NCBI GenBank assembly: GCA_964371595.1
Contig: CAYJNJ010000003.1
Coordinates: forward strand, 21,094 to 85,093
Direction: 5' to 3'
DNA length: 64,000 bases
Origin: an uncultured Bacteroidales bacterium
GTDB lineage: Bacteria > Bacteroidota > Bacteroidia > Bacteroidales > JAGOPY01
The notes beneath the pieces are model-generated. The model did no database searches. It worked only from the letters and a program-made list of their open reading frames with translations, and had not been told where the DNA came from. Each line of letters opens with the position of its first letter. Position 1 is the stretch's first letter. A program made the translations under genes and the position numbers. This document shows, piece by piece, positions 35,264 through 44,432 of the stretch.

Positions 35264-38146
35264 ATGAAAAAACTATACTCCATCAAGTGGTTCGTGTTAC
35301 TGCTATCTGTCTTTCTTTCAGGCAGTTTCATCTCCTTCCAGGCTAAAGCTGATACACTACATGTTTCCAGCAGCATTACTCCCGAGCAAATGGTCCAGGA
35401 AATCCTGGTAGGCGGCGGAGTTGTCACAAGTAATATCACCTACACAGGTAATAATATCTCCAGGGGGAAATTCTGGGGTGGGCCAGGTAGTATTGGTATA
35501 TCCGATGGGATTATTCTCACTTCAGGCAATGTAACAATTGCCCCGGGGCCCAACAACGCAGGAGGTGATGGCGCTGATTCAGGGCAGCCCGGAGATCCTG
35601 ACCTTACCGCTATTGCAGGGGTTTCAACTTTCGATGCCTGTGTGCTTGAGTTTGATTTTATCCCGCAATCAAATAAGGTTTCATTCAAGTATGTCTTTGG
35701 CTCTGAGGAATACCACGAATATGTCAATCAGTATAACGATGCATTTGGATTCTTTATCAGTGGGCCCGGGATAGATGGTCCTTATTCAAATAACAGTGAA
35801 AATATTGCATTGATCCCGCTAACGAGCATTCCTGTTACGATTAATAATGTCAATTGCGGGAATCCTTATAATTGCAGTACAAGCTGTGAGAATTGCGTTT
35901 TTTTTGTAAATAATCCACAGGGACAGCATTTTACTGAGTATGACGCATTTACAACTGTCCTAAGGGCTTGGGCCAATGTCATCCCCTGTGAGACGTATCA
36001 CATTAAACTGGCTATTGGCGATGGAATAGATCATGTTTACGATTCAGGGGTTTTTTTAGAAGCAAACAGTTTCTCCAGTGTCGGGATCTCCTCAGAGCCG
36101 GAATTTTCCGCCCCTGATTTTGAATTTGCCATTGAAGGTTGCAATAATGTGGATATCCTTTTTACACTTTCCGTGCAGCCGGATGCCGACTTCTGGATGC
36201 CGCTAAATGTGGGCGGTTCAGCAACGAATGGAGTGGATTATGTGGAAATTAATGACTCTGTCTTTTTCCCGCAGGGTTTCACCGAATCTTGGATCAGCAT
36301 CACAACCATTGCCGATGCTACTGCCGAATGGTTTGAAAATATACGCCTGGTCTACAATTCTTCACTTTGTGATGTGGATTATGATACGATTACCATCCAG
36401 CTTAAGGATTACCAGCTTGCCCTGGATATGACACCGGATACCACCATCAATTGTGCCACCCAGGCCACGATCGGGATCGAAGGGTTCAATGGCTTCGGAC
36501 CTTACCATACCGTCTGGAGTACGGGCGATACCACCCAGTATATCTCTGTCAGCCCTCTGATCACAACCACATATTACGCTACGGTTTTCGCACTATGCGA
36601 TTCCTCAACGGTCGACAGCATTACTGTTTATGTCGACGGGCCGGAATCCAATGCAGGTGTCGATGTCAGTATTCCTTACGGGACAAGCACTACGCTTGAC
36701 GGTTCTGCAAGCCAGGGATCAGGTGATTATACGTATAGCTGGGAACCGGCTGCATTTTTAATCAATCCGAATATTGCTGACCCGCTAACGATCATTATGG
36801 ACCAAACCACGCAGTTTACCCTTACTGTTACCGATATGGCCGGCATGTGCCAGGACATTGACCAGATGTTGCTAACGGTTACCGGTGGCATGCTGAATGT
36901 GGGACCGGTTGCCACTCCGGGTTCAGTCTGCCCGGGTGAAAGCTCACAGCTGAATTCATATGCAGGCGGCGGTTCAGGGTCTTATACCTATTTGTGGTCT
37001 TCAGTCCCGGTTGGGTTCAGTTCCGACCTGCAAAATCCGATAGTTCAACCTAATGTAACTACTACATATACCATTTTAGTCAATGATGGATATACCACCG
37101 TAACCGGAAATGTCACGGTCATTGTAGACCCGCTGCCATTGCCCGAGGCCGGTGAAAATGATACAATTTATCATGGGACCTACGGTTACCTGTTCGGTTC
37201 TGCATCACAGGGCTCCGGTATTTACAGTTATAGCTGGGAACCCGCTGAAAAACTGATCAATCCATTTGCACAGAATCCCAGCACAGTTAAATTGTATGAA
37301 ACGACCCTCTTCAGGTTAACGGTAACTGATAATATTACCGGTTGTGTAAGTTATGGGGAAGATCTTGCCACTGTAGTAGTGAACGGCGGCCCCCTGGCAG
37401 TTACAGCAGAAGTCACCGACCCGCTGATATGCGGTGGCGGCTCTACCCAGCTACATGCCCTGCCCAGCGGCGGAAACCCGGTGTATACTTACTCTTGGAC
37501 TTCCGATCCCCCGGGCTTTACTTCCACTGAAAGTGATCCGATCATTACTCCAGAAGGAAATACGACGTATCATGTTGTTGTGAATGATGGGTTTAATACT
37601 ACCGAATCACAGGTTAACGTTGTGGTTTCCCAGCTTCCTTATGTAAGTCTTGGCGCCGATGCCACTGTTTGTCCCCTGGATAGCATTGTACTGTCTGCCG
37701 GCAATCCCGGGCTGTCATATTACTGGTCTAATGGTTCTGTCGGGCAAACTATTACCATCGGAACGACCGGTATCGGATTTGACCTGAAAACGATCTGGGT
37801 CGAGGTGGAAAATGAGGAAGGCTGCGTGGGAACCGATACCATCAGGGTCATCTTCGATTTTGCCCAGTGCTTTGGCGTGGATGAAGCAGATAATAATGAC
37901 CACTTCTATATTTATCCAAATCCGACAAGCGGAAAAACCCAGTTTGAATGGGAAGGCATTTTTGGTAATGTTGAGCTTAAAGTTACTGACCTGGCGGGAA
38001 ATACAATCCACAGCCAGTTTATACAAACACCGGCATCCGGTGAATATAAAGGCTCTTTCAACCTTGATGGAAATCCAAAAGGTATTTATCTCCTCAGGCT
38101 GATAGGTGAAGAAAAGGTTTTAGTACGAAAGATTTTATTGCAGTAG
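35264..38146 (+). CDS. Choice-of-anchor-L domain surface protein with repeated modules and T9SS C-terminal sorting domain
   Basis: N-terminal ITPEQMVQEILVGGGV...LEFDFIPQSNKVSFKYVFGSEEY...NDAFGFFISGPGI. Four modules carry the (S/G)GSG.Y.Y.W motif. C-terminal FYIYPNPTSGKTQFEW...GIYLLRL. Confidence 0.6.
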   Translation: MKKLYSIKWFVLLLSVFLSGSFISFQAKADTLHVSSSITPEQMVQEILVGGGVVTSNITYTGNNISRGKFWGGPGSIGISDGIILTSGNVTIAPGPNNAGGDGADSGQPGDPDLTAIAGVSTFDACVLEFDFIPQSNKVSFKYVFGSEEYHEYVNQYNDAFGFFISGPGIDGPYSNNSENIALIPLTSIPVTINNVNCGNPYNCSTSCENCVFFVNNPQGQHFTEYDAFTTVLRAWANVIPCETYHIKLAIGDGIDHVYDSGVFLEANSFSSVGISSEPEFSAPDFEFAIEGCNNVDILFTLSVQPDADFWMPLNVGGSATNGVDYVEINDSVFFPQGFTESWISITTIADATAEWFENIRLVYNSSLCDVDYDTITIQLKDYQLALDMTPDTTINCATQATIGIEGFNGFGPYHTVWSTGDTTQYISVSPLITTTYYATVFALCDSSTVDSITVYVDGPESNAGVDVSIPYGTSTTLDGSASQGSGDYTYSWEPAAFLINPNIADPLTIIMDQTTQFTLTVTDMAGMCQDIDQMLLTVTGGMLNVGPVATPGSVCPGESSQLNSYAGGGSGSYTYLWSSVPVGFSSDLQNPIVQPNVTTTYTILVNDGYTTVTGNVTVIVDPLPLPEAGENDTIYHGTYGYLFGSASQGSGIYSYSWEPAEKLINPFAQNPSTVKLYETTLFRLTVTDNITGCVSYGEDLATVVVNGGPLAVTAEVTDPLICGGGSTQLHALPSGGNPVYTYSWTSDPPGFTSTESDPIITPEGNTTYHVVVNDGFNTTESQVNVVVSQLPYVSLGADATVCPLDSIVLSAGNPGLSYYWSNGSVGQTITIGTTGIGFDLKTIWVEVENEEGCVGTDTIRVIFDFAQCFGVDEADNNDHFYIYPNPTSGKTQFEWEGIFGNVELKVTDLAGNTIHSQFIQTPASGEYKGSFNLDGNPKGIYLLRLIGEEKVLVRKILLQ

Positions 38147-40347: not shown

Positions 40348-40860
40348 CTATTTTGAAAATACGTAATCCTTGCTGCTTGCCTGGGTGTGGCAGGAAATGC
40401 ACATGCCTCCGAAAAGGTCAGATCCGCGTAGCTTTCCACCACTGCCGTCGTCTGCAATCGTTCCATCTGAATTTAACACGAACCATTCCCAGTCTCCGCC
40501 ATCCGTATTGAAATTGTTGCCACGTTTTGCAAGCCCGGTAAATTCATTTACAGTGGCACCCGGATTAGAGGAATGTTTTACAATGAGAGTGCCAACAGGA
40601 TAAACGCCATTGCTGGGATCCTGGCCATTTTTGAAATAAATCTCGCGGACCACGGTGCTGTCATTCCCGCCATGGCCTGAACCCAATGAGGGATCAGGTC
40701 CCTGGTTTGTAGCCTCAAGCGGCCAGCTCATGAAGCTTGTAAAGGTATTGTCGTCGGCGATAAACTCCTGGTTCACATCCTCATCCTCTTTACATGATTG
40801 AATCGTAACTGCCCCAAGGAATACCAGTGAGGCCATTGTAATCATTTTAGTCATTTTCAT
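40348..40860 (-). CDS. Cytochrome P460-like heme lipoprotein (last gene of the hvf-like operon)
   Basis: Lipobox VTIQSC. The C-terminal GDWEWFVLN...CISCHTQASSKDYVF carries a CxxCH heme motif in the context I recall for P460-family proteins. Starts 12 nt after the DUF2063 gene stop. Confidence 0.45.
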   Translation of the reverse strand: MKMTKMITMASLVFLGAVTIQSCKEDEDVNQEFIADDNTFTSFMSWPLEATNQGPDPSLGSGHGGNDSTVVREIYFKNGQDPSNGVYPVGTLIVKHSSNPGATVNEFTGLAKRGNNFNTDGGDWEWFVLNSDGTIADDGSGGKLRGSDLFGGMCISCHTQASSKDYVFSK

Positions 40861-40871
40861 AATTGTAAAAT

Positions 40872-41624
40872 TTAGTTTGTAAAACCTATTATTAACTTAC
40901 TGTTTAATGCGTTTTCAATGAATTTTATGGAATTTTCATAAACCATTTTTTCTTCCGGTAATCCAAAATCTTTTGCAGTCACTTTTATAAGCTCATCTAT
41001 TCCAACAGAATAGTTAGCCAAATGTTCAACCATCCTGGTGAAAAATGGCGATAAACCAGTGAAATGAACTTTCCCGCTTGCCGGTTCACGGTGCATGACC
41101 AGGTAGTAATTGCCCTTGTCATCCGGCTGGATCAGGCTGGCCTGCTTAAGGTGGACCGGGTAATTGAGGGCAATCAACCGGTATTCCGGATTGAGTACCA
41201 GCTTCCCATTTCCGAAAATATCGCGCTCCTGGTATTGTACTTGCCGGTCTTCCATCATATATAATTCTATTTCAATCCATTCCATCCATAATAGGTCCTG
41301 CAGAAACGGATATTTTACCAGTAACTGATGATTTGCTTCCACGATATATTCATAAAATTCCTTTGGCATAGTCCATACCTGTGGAGACTGGCATGGATGA
41401 TCCGCGAAAAATTCATGCGCCAGGCCGTCCCATTCTTCCTGGCTAAGCAAATTGCGTGTTAGCGGATAAGCGGAAGCCAGGCTGTCGTTGATGATATTGA
41501 ACACCAGCCTCCGGTAATGGCGGACCCTTTGATCATCCACGCCGGGAATATCCTGCAAAATGCCAGTACGGCAATAGTTTGCGAGTGCCGACTGTGCGGC
41601 GCCTGTATTTTGTTTAAGCAACAT
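40872..41624 (-). CDS. hvfC: DUF2063-type partner protein (HvfC/MbnC-like)
   Basis: 250 aa, overlapping the DUF692 gene by 11 nt. Size and position match the canonical partner of DUF692 enzymes. Family call is from recollection. Confidence 0.55.
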   Translation of the reverse strand: MLLKQNTGAAQSALANYCRTGILQDIPGVDDQRVRHYRRLVFNIINDSLASAYPLTRNLLSQEEWDGLAHEFFADHPCQSPQVWTMPKEFYEYIVEANHQLLVKYPFLQDLLWMEWIEIELYMMEDRQVQYQERDIFGNGKLVLNPEYRLIALNYPVHLKQASLIQPDDKGNYYLVMHREPASGKVHFTGLSPFFTRMVEHLANYSVGIDELIKVTAKDFGLPEEKMVYENSIKFIENALNSKLIIGFTN

Positions 41625-42444
41625 AAGAGGGTTCTTTAACCAGTGATCTTGTTTTTATTTCCCTGAGCATGTTAACTTCTTGCTGTAGCTCCTCAAGTTC
41701 AGGGATATTGAAATCTCTTTCCAGAAGGACCGGGACATCATGCCCAAGTTTTTTCATGGTAAATTCAAATAAATCATACACCGGGTCAATGATCGGCTGT
41801 CCATGCGTATCGATGATCAGGTCTTCGGATACTTTCTGGTGGCCGGCCATATGAATATATTTCACCCTTTCCATCGGGAGCCGGCTGATGAATTGCCTGG
41901 CATCGTAATGATGATTAAAGCTGTTAACGTAAACATTGTTTACATCAAGCAGAAGTTCGCAGTCAGATTCTTCCAGGATCGCATTAACGAAATCAATTTC
42001 CTTCATCTCGGCTGCGACTGATGTGTAATAACTTACAATCTCAATGGTCAGCCTGCGTTCCAGGAACTCCTGGACAGTCCTTATCCGTTGTGATACGTGC
42101 TTCACGGCATCACCGGTAAAGGGTACCGGAAGAAGGTCGTAAAGATGGGCGTTGTCACATTTGGCAAAGCTCAGATGCTCGGAGTACACACTGGCTCCCG
42201 TTTCATCCAGGAAGGATTTGATCTTGCCAAGGAAGTTGAAGTCAAGGTCATCGGGGCTGCCTATGGAAAGTGAAAGCCCGTGGGTAAAGAGCGGATATTT
42301 TTCCAGCGCTTTCCTGAATTCTTTCATCCAGTACCCCCCGATTCCTATCCAGTTCTCAGGGGCTACCTCGATGAAATCAGGGGTGAGTTTCTCACCCTGG
42401 AGAAACTCACCCGCAAAATCCCGGCGAAATCCAATGCCTACCAT
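41614..42444 (-). CDS. hvfB: DUF692 / MNIO (multinuclear non-heme iron oxidase) family enzyme (HvfB/MbnB-like)
   Basis: VGIGFRRDF, DFIEVAPENW, THGLSLSIGS, YSEHLSF, YIHMAGH, IIDTHGQPI and VLLERDFN match the TIM-barrel metal-ligand pattern I recall for DUF692. Start set at ATG 42444, 1 nt after the precursor stop. Confidence 0.75.
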   Translation of the reverse strand: MVGIGFRRDFAGEFLQGEKLTPDFIEVAPENWIGIGGYWMKEFRKALEKYPLFTHGLSLSIGSPDDLDFNFLGKIKSFLDETGASVYSEHLSFAKCDNAHLYDLLPVPFTGDAVKHVSQRIRTVQEFLERRLTIEIVSYYTSVAAEMKEIDFVNAILEESDCELLLDVNNVYVNSFNHHYDARQFISRLPMERVKYIHMAGHQKVSEDLIIDTHGQPIIDPVYDLFEFTMKKLGHDVPVLLERDFNIPELEELQQEVNMLREIKTRSLVKEPSYVA

Positions 42445-42445
42445 T

Positions 42446-42871
42446 TTATTCGTTCCCGCATTTGCCTTCACCACACTTAGCTTCAGTGCTCTTGCTGTCT
42501 TTTGCAGCAGAAACAGTATCAGCAGTTGCACCGGCCTTCATTTCTTTGGAATCGCCTTCTCCACACTTGCCTTCTCCACACTTACCTTCGCCGCATTTGG
42601 CCTCAGTCGATTTATCGTCGGCCTTTTTAGCGGCAGGTTCAGTTTTAGTATCTGCCGGAGCTTTCTTGGCATCTTCACCGCAGGTAAGCTCCAGCAGGAA
42701 ATTCCTGATACTGGTTTCAGACTGATTGAGAAGGTTTGCCCGCACTATTGATCCGGAACCCAGTACATTGAAGCGGAATAAGTCGCTTGAAGCTGCATTA
42801 AGATTTGCTGCTCCGAATACTGCACCGGCGATCAGGGTGCCGGCAACGATTGATTTTTTTGTGTTATTCAT
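42446..42871 (-). CDS. hvfA: HvfA-like Cys-Gly-repeat RiPP precursor (putative oxazolone/thioamide metallophore)
   Basis: 141 aa with signal peptide MNNTKKSIVAGTLIAGAVFGAANLNA, then TCGED, AKCGEGKCGEGKCGEG and AKCGEGKCGNE. That is six Cys, each followed by Gly. Confidence 0.65.
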   Translation of the reverse strand: MNNTKKSIVAGTLIAGAVFGAANLNAASSDLFRFNVLGSGSIVRANLLNQSETSIRNFLLELTCGEDAKKAPADTKTEPAAKKADDKSTEAKCGEGKCGEGKCGEGDSKEMKAGATADTVSAAKDSKSTEAKCGEGKCGNE

Positions 42872-43050
42872 TTTTTTAAGTATTTAAGTGATTAAATTTG
42901 TTTTCTGCCCGAACAGTAGACGAAGTGCCGCTTTCCTGACAAAAATGAATAAAATAATTTGATATAATTTATATGTTACTGATTTACAATACTATTCCTG
43001 TAAAAAAAAATTATTGATAAATTATGTTGTTTTAAAATTTCTGTTAAATC

Positions 43051-43608
43051 ATGACCGGATATAAAAGCAATCTGACACGTTGGGTACTGGATTATACCGA
43101 TGAGTTATACTCGTGGGCATATTATAAGGTGTCGGATGATGAGCTTGCAAAAGACCTTGTCCAGGATACTTTCCTGGCTGCGGCGGAGAAGGTTAAGGAA
43201 TTTAAAGGTGAAAGTTCCCCGAAGACCTGGCTTTTCTCCATCCTGAATTATAAAATCATTGATGTTTACCGGAAGAAAGTAAATAAGCCGATTACCCGCG
43301 AGCCATCAGGGTTTTTGGATTTTTTTGATGAAGAAGGGAGTTGGCAGCTTGAAAAACGACCGAAAGACTGGCATGACCAGGATGAAAACCTTTTTGATAA
43401 TGCAGAATTTCAGTTAGTGCTAAAATATTGTCTTGAAGCTTTGCCGGAAAAATGGAATACCTGCATCAGGTTGAAATACCTTACCGAAAAAAGTGGGGAT
43501 GAGATCTGTCAGGAAGTTGGATTGACGACGACTAATTTCTGGCAAATCATTCACAGGGCAAAACTCCAGTTAAGGGATTGCGTTGAAAAGAATTGGTTTC
43601 AAAATTGA
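43051..43608 (+). CDS. ECF-type RNA polymerase sigma-70 factor
   Basis: Region 2 is DLVQDTFLAAAEKVKEFKG..PKTWLFSILNYKIIDVYRK. Region 4 is EICQEVGLTTTNFWQIIHRAKLQLR. Confidence 0.8.
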   Translation: MTGYKSNLTRWVLDYTDELYSWAYYKVSDDELAKDLVQDTFLAAAEKVKEFKGESSPKTWLFSILNYKIIDVYRKKVNKPITREPSGFLDFFDEEGSWQLEKRPKDWHDQDENLFDNAEFQLVLKYCLEALPEKWNTCIRLKYLTEKSGDEICQEVGLTTTNFWQIIHRAKLQLRDCVEKNWFQN

Positions 43609-43616
43609 TGTGAGCG

Positions 43617-43880
43617 ATGAAAAAATTAATGCACATATTATTCCTTTCCTGCCTGAAAGCCACCGAGTTGATTGAAAAGAAGCTCTATTTCAAACTATCA
43701 TACAGGGAAAAAATGCAATTGAAAATGCACAAGATGATGTGTGATGCCTGCACCAATTATGAGCATCAGAGCACCATCCTTGATAAAGCGATGCAAAATC
43801 AGGCAAATCCCGAAAATCTTACCCTGGACCTTGACGCGTTCAAAAAGGATATCCTCAGAAAAATGGAGGAATCGAAATAA
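43617..43880 (+). CDS. Putative anti-sigma factor (zf-HC2-like)
   Basis: 87 aa, starts 8 nt after the sigma gene. HKMMCDAC matches the H-x3-C-x2-C anti-sigma motif. Confidence 0.5.
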   Translation: MKKLMHILFLSCLKATELIEKKLYFKLSYREKMQLKMHKMMCDACTNYEHQSTILDKAMQNQANPENLTLDLDAFKKDILRKMEESK

Positions 43881-43955: not shown

Positions 43956-44432
43956 ATGAAATTAAGTCAAATTTTAAAAATGATAAAAATGCAAGCAATT
44001 CAAATGTATCAAAAAGTTACCGGCAAATTGTCGAATTTACACGACCTTCCCTTATTATTATTCAGATTGATCCTGGCGGTAGGATTTTTTACCCCGGCCA
44101 TGATGAAATGGAAAAACATCGGCGGAATTGCCGAATGGTTTGGCAGCATGGGCATCCCGATGCCATTCCTGAACGCTTACCTTGCAGCCTCCACGGAAAT
44201 GGCTGCTGTAATTTTATTACCCCTGGGCCTTGCCACACGTTTTATTTCGATCCCTCTAATGTTCACTATGGTAGTAGCCGTTGTAACGGTCCATATTGGA
44301 AATGGATTTAATGCCGGCGACAATGGTTACGAGATCCCTCTCTATTATATGATCATGTTGGTTGCCCTTCTCATAAACGGCGCAGGCAAATTCAGCCTGG
44401 ATCACTTGATTTTGAGGAGGATAAAATCATAG
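43956..44432 (+). CDS. DoxX-family membrane protein
   Basis: Four predicted TM helices and LLLFRLILAVGFF..G..K at the start, typical DoxX size. Confidence 0.65.
   Translation: MKLSQILKMIKMQAIQMYQKVTGKLSNLHDLPLLLFRLILAVGFFTPAMMKWKNIGGIAEWFGSMGIPMPFLNAYLAASTEMAAVILLPLGLATRFISIPLMFTMVVAVVTVHIGNGFNAGDNGYEIPLYYMIMLVALLINGAGKFSLDHLILRRIKS

What the first reader, a model, noticed from the sequence alone, without database searches (positions are those of the whole stretch)
42446..42871. Precursor peptide architecture: signal peptide plus six (K/T)CG sites in one lone site and two blocks
The translated peptide has an Sec-type leader (…AANLNAASS) and a ~50-residue non-repetitive segment. After that come, in order:
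- TCGED
- a K/A/E/T-rich spacer
- AKCGEGKCGEGKCGEG
- a second spacer
- AKCGEGKCGNE at the very C-terminus

Both Cys blocks are preceded by the same DKSTEAKCGEGKCG / DSKSTEAKCGEGKCG context. The core therefore looks like an internal duplication. At DNA level the blocks use different codons (for example ccacacttgcc versus ccacacttacc versus ccgcatttggc). That argues for selection on the peptide rather than a recent slippage event.

The number and spacing of modifiable Cys would set the metal stoichiometry of the mature product.
Basis: seen in the sequence. Interest (0 to 1): 0.55.

Follow-up and report, generated by a model that had tools for sequence, protein, structure and literature searches.

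The report
Copper-binding RiPP precursor (HvfA/captophorin) gene
This small gene encodes a secreted, cysteine-rich precursor peptide of the known HvfA/oxazolin ("captophorin") family of copper-binding modified peptides, found here in a Bacteroidales bacterium, so it is a clear but ordinary new member of a known family.

Summary
ORF 42446-42871 (-) encodes a 141-aa peptide with a Sec-type signal and exactly six Cys, all Cys-Gly: T-C64-G, KCG x3 (93/98/103) and KCG x2 (133/138) at the C-terminus.

It is an HvfA-family (Lys-Cys captophorin/oxazolin-type) precursor:
- It passes NCBIfam NF050137.
- hvfB (MNIO, 49% identical to FonB) and hvfC follow it directly.
- An ECF sigma, a ZAS-like anti-sigma and hvfX (DoxX) are transcribed divergently.

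More than 130 full-length homologues in Bacteroidota, Ignavibacteriota and Calditrichota share the design. The 1-2-2 block layout is commonest and 1-3-2 (this one) is second. The lone Cys-Gly and an N-terminal LGSGxxxR motif are invariant.

- The two blocks are an old, selection-maintained duplication (11 of 13 shared residues use different codons). However, units 2 and 3 of block 1 are a perfect 15-nt tandem repeat that the closest relative lacks, so that unit is recent slippage.
- The family's chemistry was reassigned in 2025-26 from oxazolone/thioamide to 5-thiooxazole.
- A fixed Cu stoichiometry is unproven.

I also found a conserved ECF-type promoter upstream of hvfA. Verdict: new member of a known kind, modest interest.

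The parts
42446..42871 (-). hvfA-like precursor gene (141 aa plus stop)
   Evidence: NF050137 KCGExKCG_twice scores 32.9 bits against a cut-off of 19.5. 133 homologues. dN/dS 0.15.
42785..42871 (-). Sec (SPase I-type) signal peptide, aa 1-26/29. n-region MNNTKK, h-region SIVAGTLIAGAVFGAA, c-region NLNA/ASS. There is no lipobox Cys.
   Evidence: Read from the sequence. The same n/h/c layout is conserved in all homologues. The cleavage position is uncertain by about 3 residues because no SignalP was run.
42683..42784 (-). Conserved N-terminal domain (aa 30-63) with the motif LF.F..LGSGxxxR..LL. G38 and R44 are invariant. A helix is predicted for aa 40-69.
   Evidence: Alignment A1. AlphaFold gives pLDDT 62-73 here only. 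A profile of this domain finds 170 clusters among 1.84 billion representative proteins, all small proteins with the domain at about aa 28-70.
42677..42691 (-). Lone site E-L-T-C64-G (Cys codon 42680-42682), a degenerate copy of the 5-mer motif
   Evidence: C64 and G65 are invariant in 70 sequences. At the first site, -3 is E/D in 100%, -2 is L/A/M in 97%, -1 is K in 63%, T in 13% and N in 13%, and +1 is G in 100%.
42617..42676 (-). Spacer 1 (aa 66-85), K/A/E/T/P-rich, predicted disordered
42554..42616 (-). Block 1: DKSTEA-KCGEG-KCGEG-KCGEG (Cys 93, 98, 103)
42554..42583 (-). Perfect 15-nt tandem duplication (AAGTGTGGAGAAGGC x2) encoding units 2 and 3 of block 1
   Evidence: TRF finds period 15, 2.4 copies, 95% match at 42554-42589. 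The two units are 15/15 identical. The unit is absent from the 87%-identical relative L001/L006.
42497..42553 (-). Spacer 2 (aa 107-125), predicted disordered
42449..42496 (-). Block 2: SKSTEA-KCGEG-KCG-NE (Cys 133, 138), at the C-terminus
   Evidence: The last Cys lies 2-3 residues from the C-terminus in 92 of 121 homologues.
42915..42941 (-). ECF-type promoter-like motif TGTCAGG-N15-CTACT, ending 43 nt upstream of the hvfA ATG
   Evidence: This is one of only two matches in the 64-kb window. The motif lies within 200 nt upstream of 29 of 68 related precursor genes, ending 37-61 nt before the ATG in 28 of the 29. About 0.8 loci would be expected from the background density.
41614..42444 (-). 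hvfB, an MNIO (DUF692) maturase. Its ATG is 2 nt after the hvfA stop.
   Evidence: NF003818 scores 393.5 against a cut-off of 360, and PF05114 gives 5e-98. It is 49% identical to FonB, with Arg-Arg (R7, R8) and LLERDFNIP conserved. PDB 3bww matches at 5e-73.
40872..41624 (-). hvfC, a PME1/DUF2063 partner protein with an RRE. It overlaps hvfB by 11 nt.
   Evidence: PF09836 scores 72.3 against 27.2 and PF22106 scores 37.9 against 27. NF050145 scores 132.3 against a cut-off of 142. PDB 3dee matches at 3e-4.
40348..40860 (-). Fourth gene of the operon: a cytochrome P460-like putative lipoprotein with CISCH (CxxCH)
   Evidence: PF16694 scores 28.7 against 27. The gene sits directly after hvfC in 6 of 80 related loci.
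43051..43608 (+). Divergent ECF sigma factor
   Evidence: TIGR02937 scores 84.9 against 42.9. A sigma gene lies next to hvf in 38 of 80 loci and.
43617..43880 (+). Small anti-sigma factor (87 aa) with an HxxxCxxC (ZAS-type) motif
   Evidence: NF052368 scores 48.8 against a cut-off of 50. The motif HKMMCDAC is visible in the sequence.
43956..44432 (+). hvfX (DoxX family)
   Evidence: NF050144 scores 125.9 against 80, and PF07681 matches. DoxX is present in 42 of 80 related loci.

Best explanation
The ORF is the precursor (HvfA-like, Lys-Cys captophorin type) of a ribosomally made, post-translationally modified copper-binding peptide.

Shown here:
- It is a conserved coding gene under purifying selection.
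- It carries a Sec-type signal, a conserved N-domain and six [E/D]-x-x-C-G sites.
- It heads an operon hvfA-hvfB-hvfC(-P460-like). An ECF sigma, a ZAS-like anti-sigma and hvfX are transcribed divergently.
- It is preceded by a conserved ECF-type promoter motif.

Inferred from characterised relatives (oxazolin, fontiphorin, gonophorin):
- In the cytoplasm the iron- and O2-dependent MNIO HvfB, together with its partner HvfC, oxidises each target Cys by four electrons (-4 Da). The product is a 5-thiooxazole formed with the carbonyl of the preceding residue (Lys, or Thr at site 64).
- The modified peptide is exported by Sec, and the signal peptide is removed.
- The largely disordered product, about 112-115 residues, binds Cu(I) in the periplasm through pairs of thiooxazoles. 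That gives up to three Cu if all six sites are converted and pair up.
- Expression is probably switched on by the neighbouring ECF sigma when its Cys-containing anti-sigma is inactivated by metal or thiol stress.

The architecture has two layers. The old layer is the lone site plus two KCGEGKCG blocks, each preceded by [ED]xK[STA]x[ED][AG]. The fast layer is gain and loss of 5-residue units by 15-nt slippage, which produced the third unit of block 1 in this genome.
For: - Family assignment: NF050137 scores above its cut-off. HvfB scores above the equivalog cut-off. HvfX scores above its cut-off. HvfC has both Pfam domains.
- HvfB is 49% identical to FonB, which was shown to install 5-thiooxazoles. 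The Arg-Arg and Asp-Phe residues that the authors link to Lys-Cys substrate selectivity are conserved (PMC13097082).
- 133 full-length homologues exist. A precursor lies directly upstream of hvfB in 68 of 80 genomes.
- All six Cys positions are invariant or >=90% conserved.
- 668 of 675 Cys in the family are followed by Gly.
- The lone site shares the -3 acid and the +1 Gly with canonical sites. FonBC tolerates Thr at the -1 position (PMC13097082).
- dN/dS is 0.15.
- Old duplication: 11 of 13 shared codons differ. Recent slippage: a perfect 15-nt tandem repeat that the closest relative lacks.
- The ECF-type motif is enriched upstream of precursors, in 29 of 68 loci. The sigma/anti-sigma pair is adjacent.
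- Chemistry and Cu binding of relatives: PMC11252979, PMC13097082, bioRxiv 10.64898/2026.06.05.730506 and 10.64898/2026.07.17.739211.
Against: - No member of this Bacteroidota/Ignavibacteriota subfamily has been characterised. Modification, export and Cu binding are all inferred.
- The H. influenzae-type HvfA equivalog model is not met (37.2 bits against 95; it matches only aa 70-140). HvfC is just below its NCBIfam cut-off (132.3 against 142).
- A FonA peptide with a single repeat was not modified in vitro, whereas a two-repeat peptide was (PMC13097082). The isolated site 64 may therefore stay unmodified.
- Cu binding of EGKCG peptides may be stochastic and aggregating rather than a fixed 1 Cu per pair (PMC13097082).
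- The promoter is a motif inference only, and the sigma-promoter pairing is untested.
- The N-domain is absent from 10 of the 68 relatives, including the Chryseobacterium-type ones. It therefore cannot be universally required.
Confidence: 0.82

Rival explanations
1. Only the five KCG sites in the two blocks are converted. The invariant lone E-L-T-C64-G is not a modification site. Instead it could anchor the substrate on the HvfBC complex, act as a free-thiol Cu ligand, or form an intermolecular disulfide at the end of the N-terminal helix.
For: - A single-repeat FonA peptide was not processed in vitro (PMC13097082).
- In H. influenzae HvfA the two N-terminal Cys outside the repeats are not modified and form a disulfide (PMC11252979).
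- At the lone site, -2 is Leu/Ala/Met rather than Gly/Ala, and -1 is variable, including Asp/Glu in about 6% of sequences. FonBC does not accept Glu at that position (PMC13097082).
- The commonest architecture, 1-2-2, has an odd number of sites.
Against: - The lone site keeps the two most conserved motif features: E/D at -3 and Gly at +1, both in 100% of sequences.
- In about 20 of 121 homologues the same position is extended into a 2-4-unit KCGEGKCG block. This suggests it is the same kind of site.
- FonBC tolerates Thr at -1 (PMC13097082).
Confidence: 0.3
2. The peptide is an unmodified, secreted Cys-rich metal-binding protein (metallothionein-like thiolate ligands). Under this reading the neighbouring hvfBC genes act on something else.
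For: Unmodified HvfA also binds copper to some extent (PMC11252979, discussion). Some family precursor genes occur without an adjacent MNIO gene (PMC12452194).
Against: - The stop of hvfA and the start of hvfB are 2 nt apart.
- The precursor-hvfB-hvfC order holds in 68 of 80 genomes.
- No other Cys-Gly repeat ORF exists in the window.
- All characterised EGKCG precursors are modified by their adjacent MNIO/PME1 pair (PMC11252979, PMC13097082).
Confidence: 0.05
3. The modified Cys become oxazolone/thioamide pairs as in methanobactin. This is what the NCBIfam family name and the original 2024 report state.
For: NCBIfam names and PMC11252979.
Against: - Oxazolin was reassigned to 5-thiooxazole by the original authors and by an independent group (bioRxiv 10.64898/2026.06.05.730506; PMC13097082).
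- The window's HvfB scores far below the MbnB model (47 bits against 325) and groups with HvfB, FonB and BufB.
Confidence: 0.05
4. The ORF is a spurious low-complexity reading frame generated by a DNA repeat.
For: The composition is low in complexity, and a 15-nt tandem repeat is present.
Against: - Only 30-36 nt are repetitive at the DNA level.
- The rest of the gene is conserved at the protein level, with saturated synonymous change.
- 133 homologues have a conserved non-repetitive N-domain.
Confidence: 0.01

Closest known systems
Oxazolin precursor HvfA of nontypeable Haemophilus influenzae (NTHI1441), with HvfB/HvfC/HvfX (PMC11252979; chemistry revised in bioRxiv 10.64898/2026.06.05.730506)
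   Same: Both have a Sec signal peptide, six Cys in (A/G)KCGEGKCG motifs towards the C-terminus, and an adjacent MNIO, DUF2063 partner and DoxX gene. Both are predicted to be disordered.
   Different: - HvfA is 95 aa with three equal AEGKCGEGKCG repeats (2-2-2). It has a 20-residue N region with two unmodified, disulfide-bonded Cys.
- The window peptide is 141 aa with a 1-3-2 layout, long K/A/E/T spacers and a conserved LGSGxxxR N-domain without a disulfide pair. It has an ECF sigma/anti-sigma pair next to it.
- The HvfA equivalog model is not met (37.2 bits against 95).
Fontiphorin precursor FonA with FonB/FonC from Fontimonas thermophila (Lys-Cys captophorin; PMC13097082)
   Same: Both have a block layout with a three-unit middle or first block (FonA is 2-3-2, seven sites). 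The maturases are 49% identical, with conserved selectivity residues. The N region after the signal peptide contains F...LG.G (FonA: VFQASDLGAGY).
   Different: - The N-region resemblance is not statistically supported: the profile scores -0.4 bits on FonA.
- FonA has no isolated site.
- FonA comes from Pseudomonadota.
Gonophorin precursor NgoA (Neisseria gonorrhoeae; PMC13097082)
   Same: It mixes isolated x-C-G sites (GSCGA, about 10 residues apart) with KCGEGKCG pairs, as the window peptide mixes a lone TCG with KCG blocks.
   Different: The sequence context differs (SAEGSCGA). NgoA lacks the LGSG N-domain. Site-by-site modification data for the isolated sites were not found in the text I read.
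Bufferins (Buf1/DUF2282 and Buf2) with BufB/BufC (PMC11626156, PMC12452194)
   Same: Both are Sec-exported, MNIO/PME1-modified, thiooxazole-containing periplasmic Cu-binding RiPPs. Bufferin gene clusters often carry sigma/anti-sigma and DoxX genes.
   Different: Bufferins are folded domains or Cys-Lys repeat proteins. The window precursor has no DUF2282 hit. The window's HvfB is below the BufB cut-off (270 against 310).
Methanobactin MbnA/MbnB/MbnC
   Same: The precursor Cys are oxidised by an MNIO plus a partner protein to give Cu(I)-binding heterocycles.
   Different: Methanobactin has a leader/core peptide without a Sec signal, oxazolone/thioamide chemistry, and is secreted as a small chalkophore. 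The MbnB model scores 47 bits against 325.

Membership tests
HvfA family / Lys-Cys captophorin (oxazolin-type) precursor | Repeated (E)(G/A)KCG 5-mers, typically as KCGExKCG pairs | tested here: met
   NF050137 KCGExKCG_twice scores 32.9 bits against a cut-off of 19.5, with 3 matched stretches. There are five KCG sites in two blocks.
HvfA family / Lys-Cys captophorin (oxazolin-type) precursor | N-terminal Sec signal peptide instead of a classical RiPP leader | tested here: met
   The n/h/c regions are visible and conserved in all homologues. This is heuristic only, and the cleavage site was not predicted with a dedicated tool.
HvfA family / Lys-Cys captophorin (oxazolin-type) precursor | Encoded next to an HvfB-type MNIO (DUF692) | tested here: met
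   NF003818 scores 393.5 against 360. PF05114 gives 5e-98. The gene starts 2 nt after the hvfA stop. It is 49% identical to FonB.
HvfA family / Lys-Cys captophorin (oxazolin-type) precursor | PME1 / DUF2063 (HvfC) partner protein | tested here: met
   PF09836 and PF22106 are both above their gathering scores. The NCBIfam equivalog NF050145 is slightly below its cut-off (132.3 against 142).
HvfA family / Lys-Cys captophorin (oxazolin-type) precursor | DoxX-type HvfX gene in the cluster (frequent, not obligatory) | tested here: met
   NF050144 scores 125.9 against 80.
HvfA family / Lys-Cys captophorin (oxazolin-type) precursor | Cys converted to 5-thiooxazole (-4 Da each, ~305 nm absorbance) by HvfBC | not testable with these tools
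   This needs co-expression and MS/UV/NMR. It is inferred from PMC13097082 and bioRxiv 10.64898/2026.06.05.730506.
HvfA family / Lys-Cys captophorin (oxazolin-type) precursor | Cu(I) binding by the mature peptide | not testable with these tools
   Inferred from PMC11252979 and PMC13097082.
HvfA equivalog (H. influenzae-type oxazolin, NF050188) | Full-length match above the curated cut-off | tested here: not met
   The score is 37.2 bits against a cut-off of 95, and only aa 70-140 match. The peptide belongs to the family but is not an orthologue-level equivalent.
Bufferin Buf1 (DUF2282) / BufB | DUF2282 domain in the precursor; BufB equivalog | tested here: not met
   The precursor has no Pfam hit. 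NF050167 scores 270.2 against 310.
Methanobactin (MbnA/MbnB) | MbnB equivalog; leader/core precursor without a Sec signal | tested here: not met
   TIGR04159 scores 47 against 325. The precursor has a Sec-type signal.

The most novel reading that the evidence does not exclude
The Bacteroidota/Ignavibacteriota/Calditrichota precursors may form a distinct captophorin subclass with three features:
- An invariant post-signal module acts as a retained, leader-like docking and priming element for HvfBC. It consists of the LGSGxxxR motif and a predicted helix that ends in an obligatory E-L-x-C-G site. The lone Cys would be the first, or a special, modification or metal site.
- Block size is tuned by 15-nt slippage.
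- The whole system is driven by a dedicated ECF sigma/ZAS anti-sigma switch. Its promoter motif also appears to be embedded, under synonymous-site constraint, in the sigma gene's own region 4.2 coding sequence.
Probability: 0.3. Interest if true: 0.45.

Novelty: new member of a known kind. Interest (0 to 1): 0.28.

Why it matters
The family matters because captophorins (oxazolin, bufferins, fontiphorin) are a recently recognised and very widespread bacterial way of handling copper. One of them is a virulence factor of H. influenzae. All characterised EGKCG members come from Pseudomonadota.

This locus is a clean example from Bacteroidales, an order not listed in the published taxonomic census (173 Bacteroidota clusters among about 21,000, none assigned to Bacteroidales).

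The comparative picture assembled here gives concrete, testable hypotheses about substrate recognition, site choice and regulation:
- an invariant lone Cys-Gly site
- a conserved N-domain
- unit gain and loss by slippage
- an ECF-type promoter

It does not change what is known about the chemistry or the kind of system.

Tried and rejected
1. Is the N-domain shared with characterised precursors? An HMM of aa 28-67 gave non-significant scores, no better than shuffled sequences, on FonA, HvfA and NgoA. On FonA the F...LG.G stretch alone scored -0.4 bits. The visual resemblance to FonA's VFQASDLGAGY is therefore unsupported.
2. Structure: AlphaFold with a 70-sequence alignment gave mean pLDDT 51. 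Only a moderate-confidence helix at aa 40-69 appeared, and the Cys blocks scored below 50. No fold search was run because the model is too poor.
3. Concerted evolution of the two blocks: the upstream contexts are more alike within a protein than between proteins (4.19 against 3.13 of 7, permutation p<2e-4). At the DNA level, however, the blocks are saturated with synonymous differences in the window and in 5 relatives. Recent gene conversion is therefore rejected. Shared ancestry or co-adaptation to the enzyme remains possible. The permutation test ignores phylogeny.
4. Sigma-70 and terminator consensus scans around the operon were no better than shuffles.
5. A second precursor in the window: none found.
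6. The exact genome: the best HvfB match in the GTDB species representatives is 91% (Bacteroidales MAG KA25), so the source species is not among them.
TRF was used instead.

Full report
**1. Observation**

The minus-strand ORF 42446-42871 starts with ATG, ends with TAA and encodes 141 aa. Its parts, in order, are:
- a positively charged N-terminus (MNNTKK)
- a 16-residue hydrophobic core
- a small-residue c-region (NLNA/ASS)
- a 34-37-residue non-repetitive segment
- the site ELT-C64-GED
- a K/A/E/T/P-rich spacer
- DKSTEA-KC93GEG-KC98GEG-KC103GEG
- a second spacer
- SKSTEA-KC133GEG-KC138G-NE-stop

There are exactly six Cys, each followed by Gly.

**2. It is a real gene**

A search of 5.8 billion proteins found 133 homologues at E<=1e-3. 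Nearly all are 120-155 aa and cover about the full query length. Where named, they come from Bacteroidales, Bacteroidota, Chlorobi/Ignavibacteria and Calditrichia MAGs. One, from Caldithrix abyssi, is already named "HvfA family oxazolone/thioamide-modified RiPP metallophore" by NCBI.

Against the 87%-identical relative, dN/dS is 0.15 with dS 0.56.

**3. Family assignment**

The precursor:
- passes NCBIfam domain model NF050137 (KCGExKCG_twice, 32.9 bits against 19.5)
- fails the H. influenzae-type equivalog NF050188 (37.2 against 95; only aa 70-140 match)

The neighbouring genes:
- Two nucleotides after the hvfA stop begins an MNIO. It passes the HvfB equivalog model (393.5 against 360) and PF05114. 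It is 49% identical to FonB, the fontiphorin maturase. The Arg-Arg pair and the LLERDFNIP segment align; these hold the residues that the authors link to catalysis and Lys-Cys substrate selectivity (PMC13097082).
- hvfC overlaps hvfB by 11 nt. It has PF09836 and PF22106 and is just under the NCBIfam cut-off.
- A cytochrome P460-like putative lipoprotein follows 12 nt later.
- An ECF sigma, an 87-aa anti-sigma with HxxxCxxC, and an HvfX/DoxX gene (125.9 against 80) are transcribed divergently.

**4. What is known about the family**

- H. influenzae HvfA (95 aa, signal peptide, three AEGKCGEGKCG repeats) is modified at six Cys by HvfBC. It binds about one Cu(I) per pair of modified Cys (PMC11252979).
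- The modification was first called oxazolone/thioamide. It was reassigned to 5-thiooxazole by two groups (PMC13097082; bioRxiv 10.64898/2026.06.05.730506; 10.64898/2026.07.17.739211).
- The class is now called captophorins.
- Censuses list about 2,000 Buf_EGKCG/oxazolin proteins, mostly from Pseudomonadota (PMC12452194). Among about 21,000 MNIO-PME1 clusters, 173 are from Bacteroidota, 2 from Ignavibacteriota and 1 from Calditrichota. None is assigned to the order Bacteroidales (PMC13097082 Table S3).

The kind of system is therefore known and already catalogued in this phylum, but no member of this phylum has been studied.

**5. Architecture across relatives**

Grouping Cys that lie 5 residues apart into blocks in 121 sequences gave these results:
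- The commonest layouts are 1-2-2 (41 sequences) and 1-3-2 (21, the window's type).
- 668 of 675 Cys are followed by Gly, and 619 are KCG.
- The last Cys lies 2-3 residues from the C-terminus in 92 of 121 sequences.

In a 70-sequence alignment:
- The invariant positions are G38 and R44 (motif LGSGxxxR), C64-G65 (the lone site), K92-C93-G94, K132, E135 and K137.
- The other block Cys-Gly pairs are >=90% conserved.

The lone site is therefore a family hallmark. It is a degenerate 5-mer. At the lone site, -3 is E/D in 100% of sequences and +1 is Gly in 100%, as at canonical sites. It differs at -2, where it has Leu/Ala/Met instead of Gly/Ala, and at -1, where it has K in 63%, T in 13% and N in 13% instead of K in 99%. 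In about 20 homologues the same position is expanded into a 2-4-unit KCGEGKCG block.

FonBC tolerates Thr at -1 but did not modify a one-repeat test peptide (PMC13097082). Whether C64 is converted therefore remains open.

**6. Genome-level survey**

A scan of GTDB species representatives with HvfB returned 80 loci. They come from Bacteroidales, Marinilabiliales, Flavobacteriales (including cultured Chryseobacterium, Wenyingzhuangia, Schleiferia and Flavobacterium), Hydrotalea, Sphingobacteriaceae and Ignavibacteriota/Chlorobiota. The best match is 91%, to a Bacteroidales MAG.
- 68 loci have a Cys-Gly precursor directly upstream of hvfB. These carry 3-11 Cys-Gly sites, with modes at 6 and 5.
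- 58 of the 68 have the LGSG-type N-motif. Ten lack it, including the Chryseobacterium-type precursors.

A profile of the N-domain alone finds 170 clusters at 50% identity among 1.84 billion representative proteins. All are small proteins with the domain right after the signal peptide. Essentially all carry Cys-Gly cores, apart from apparent truncations.

The N-domain profile does not detect the N regions of FonA, HvfA or NgoA.

AlphaFold predicts a moderately confident helix for aa 40-69 and disorder elsewhere.

**7. Duplication versus slippage**

The 14-residue contexts of the two blocks share 13 residues, and 11 of these use different codons. The same saturation is seen in five relatives. 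Both blocks follow a family-wide consensus, [ED]xK[STA]x[ED][AG]KCGEGKCG.

Within block 1 the picture differs. Units 2 and 3 are AAGTGTGGAGAAGGC repeated exactly (15/15 nt; TRF period 15 at 42554-42589). Several close relatives (73-87% identical) are exactly five residues shorter there. One other relative has the third unit with Ser in place of Cys. Unit number therefore changes quickly by 15-nt slippage, and the sixth Cys of this peptide is a recent or recurrently homogenised addition.

**8. Regulation**

Upstream of hvfA lies TGTCAGG-N15-CTACT (42941-42915, minus strand), which ends 43 nt before the ATG. The pattern TGT[CA]A[GA][GT]-N14-16-C[GT][AT]CT has these properties:
- It occurs only twice in the 64-kb window.
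- It lies within 200 nt upstream of 29 of 68 related precursor genes. The motif ends 37-61 nt before the ATG in 28 of those 29. About 0.8 loci would be expected from the background density.

It resembles ECF-type promoters, in particular a CGTCT-like -10 element; that comparison rests on my own knowledge. A sigma gene accompanies hvf in 38 of 80 loci, and a sigma/anti-sigma pair is seen in the contexts retrieved for individual homologues. I infer ECF-dependent, stress-induced transcription. This is untested.

**9. Mechanism and verdict**

The best explanation (confidence about 0.8) is a captophorin precursor with this pathway:
- cytoplasmic conversion of its Cys to 5-thiooxazoles by HvfBC
- Sec export and signal cleavage
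- periplasmic Cu(I) binding by pairs of heterocycles

The main open point is whether the lone site is modified. The stoichiometry idea is reasonable, but it is weakened by the wide variation in site number among close relatives and by the report that EGKCG peptides may bind Cu stochastically.

Novelty: a new member of a known kind. It belongs to a Bacteroidota/Ignavibacteriota subfamily with its own N-domain. NCBI's current models would already name the protein. Interest is modest.

Noticed in passing
window 43507-43533 (+), inside the ECF sigma gene 43051-43608: The second of the only two promoter-motif matches in the window (TGTCAGGAAGTTGGATTGACGACGACT) lies in the sigma gene's region 4.2 coding sequence (C-Q-E-V-G-L-T-T-T), about 110 nt upstream of the anti-sigma start. 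In 23 sigma genes next to hvf loci the codons here are TGT in 22/23, AAG in 15/15 (never AAA) and CAG in 7/8, and 16 of 23 match the full motif. This suggests synonymous-site constraint and possibly an internal autoregulated promoter. Phylogenetic non-independence was not controlled.
   Followed up: partly
window 40348-40860 (-): The fourth gene of the hvf operon starts 12 nt after hvfC. It encodes a 170-aa putative lipoprotein with a CxxCH haem motif (CISCH) and a weak cytochrome P460 Pfam hit (28.7 against 27). The same gene follows hvfC in 6 of 80 related loci, all Bacteroidales or Marinilabiliales-like. A P460-like gene is not among the accessory genes named in the parts of the published cluster surveys I read.
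   Followed up: partly
window 43617-43880 (+): The 87-aa anti-sigma factor has no obvious transmembrane segment and carries HKMMCDAC, an HxxxCxxC motif of the zinc-binding (ZAS) anti-sigma type. That fits a thiol- or metal-responsive switch. The ZAS interpretation rests on my own knowledge.
   Followed up: no
L001 3661-7823 (the same contig is held as L006): In the closest relative, the sigma-side operon carries extra redox genes between the anti-sigma and beyond DoxX: CMD/AhpD-like, DsrE, AhpC/redoxin, DoxX, thioredoxin and a pyridine-nucleotide disulfide oxidoreductase. A further copy of the promoter motif (TGTCAGGTTTAGCATTTTATCCGACT) lies just upstream of the DsrE gene. The window has only sigma, anti-sigma and DoxX.
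   Followed up: partly
L024, L027, L029 (Wenyingzhuangia); L051, L053, L054, L059, L062, L063, L066, L078 (Ignavibacteriota/Chlorobiota): Some related precursors are strikingly different. Wenyingzhuangia has 7-9 isolated sites in exact 10-residue repeats (AKDAKCGEAK...). The Ignavibacteriota/Chlorobiota ones have two 3-4-unit blocks separated by a poly-Glu/Gly spacer (GEEGEEGEE...).
   Followed up: no
L043, L045, L056, L061, L064, L069, L075 (Chryseobacterium and a Flavobacterium sp. MAG): These precursors lack the LGSGxxxR N-domain entirely. They begin their Cys-Gly sites about 15 residues after the signal peptide (IEAACG..., STEAACG...). They have a different conserved upstream DNA motif (GGTATTAATAT) instead of the ECF-type motif.
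   Followed up: no
window 35264-38146 (+): A 960-aa secreted repeat protein ends with a segment (...FYIYPNPTSGKT...LLLQ) that looks like a type IX secretion C-terminal sorting domain, consistent with a Bacteroidota origin. This was judged by eye only.
   Followed up: no
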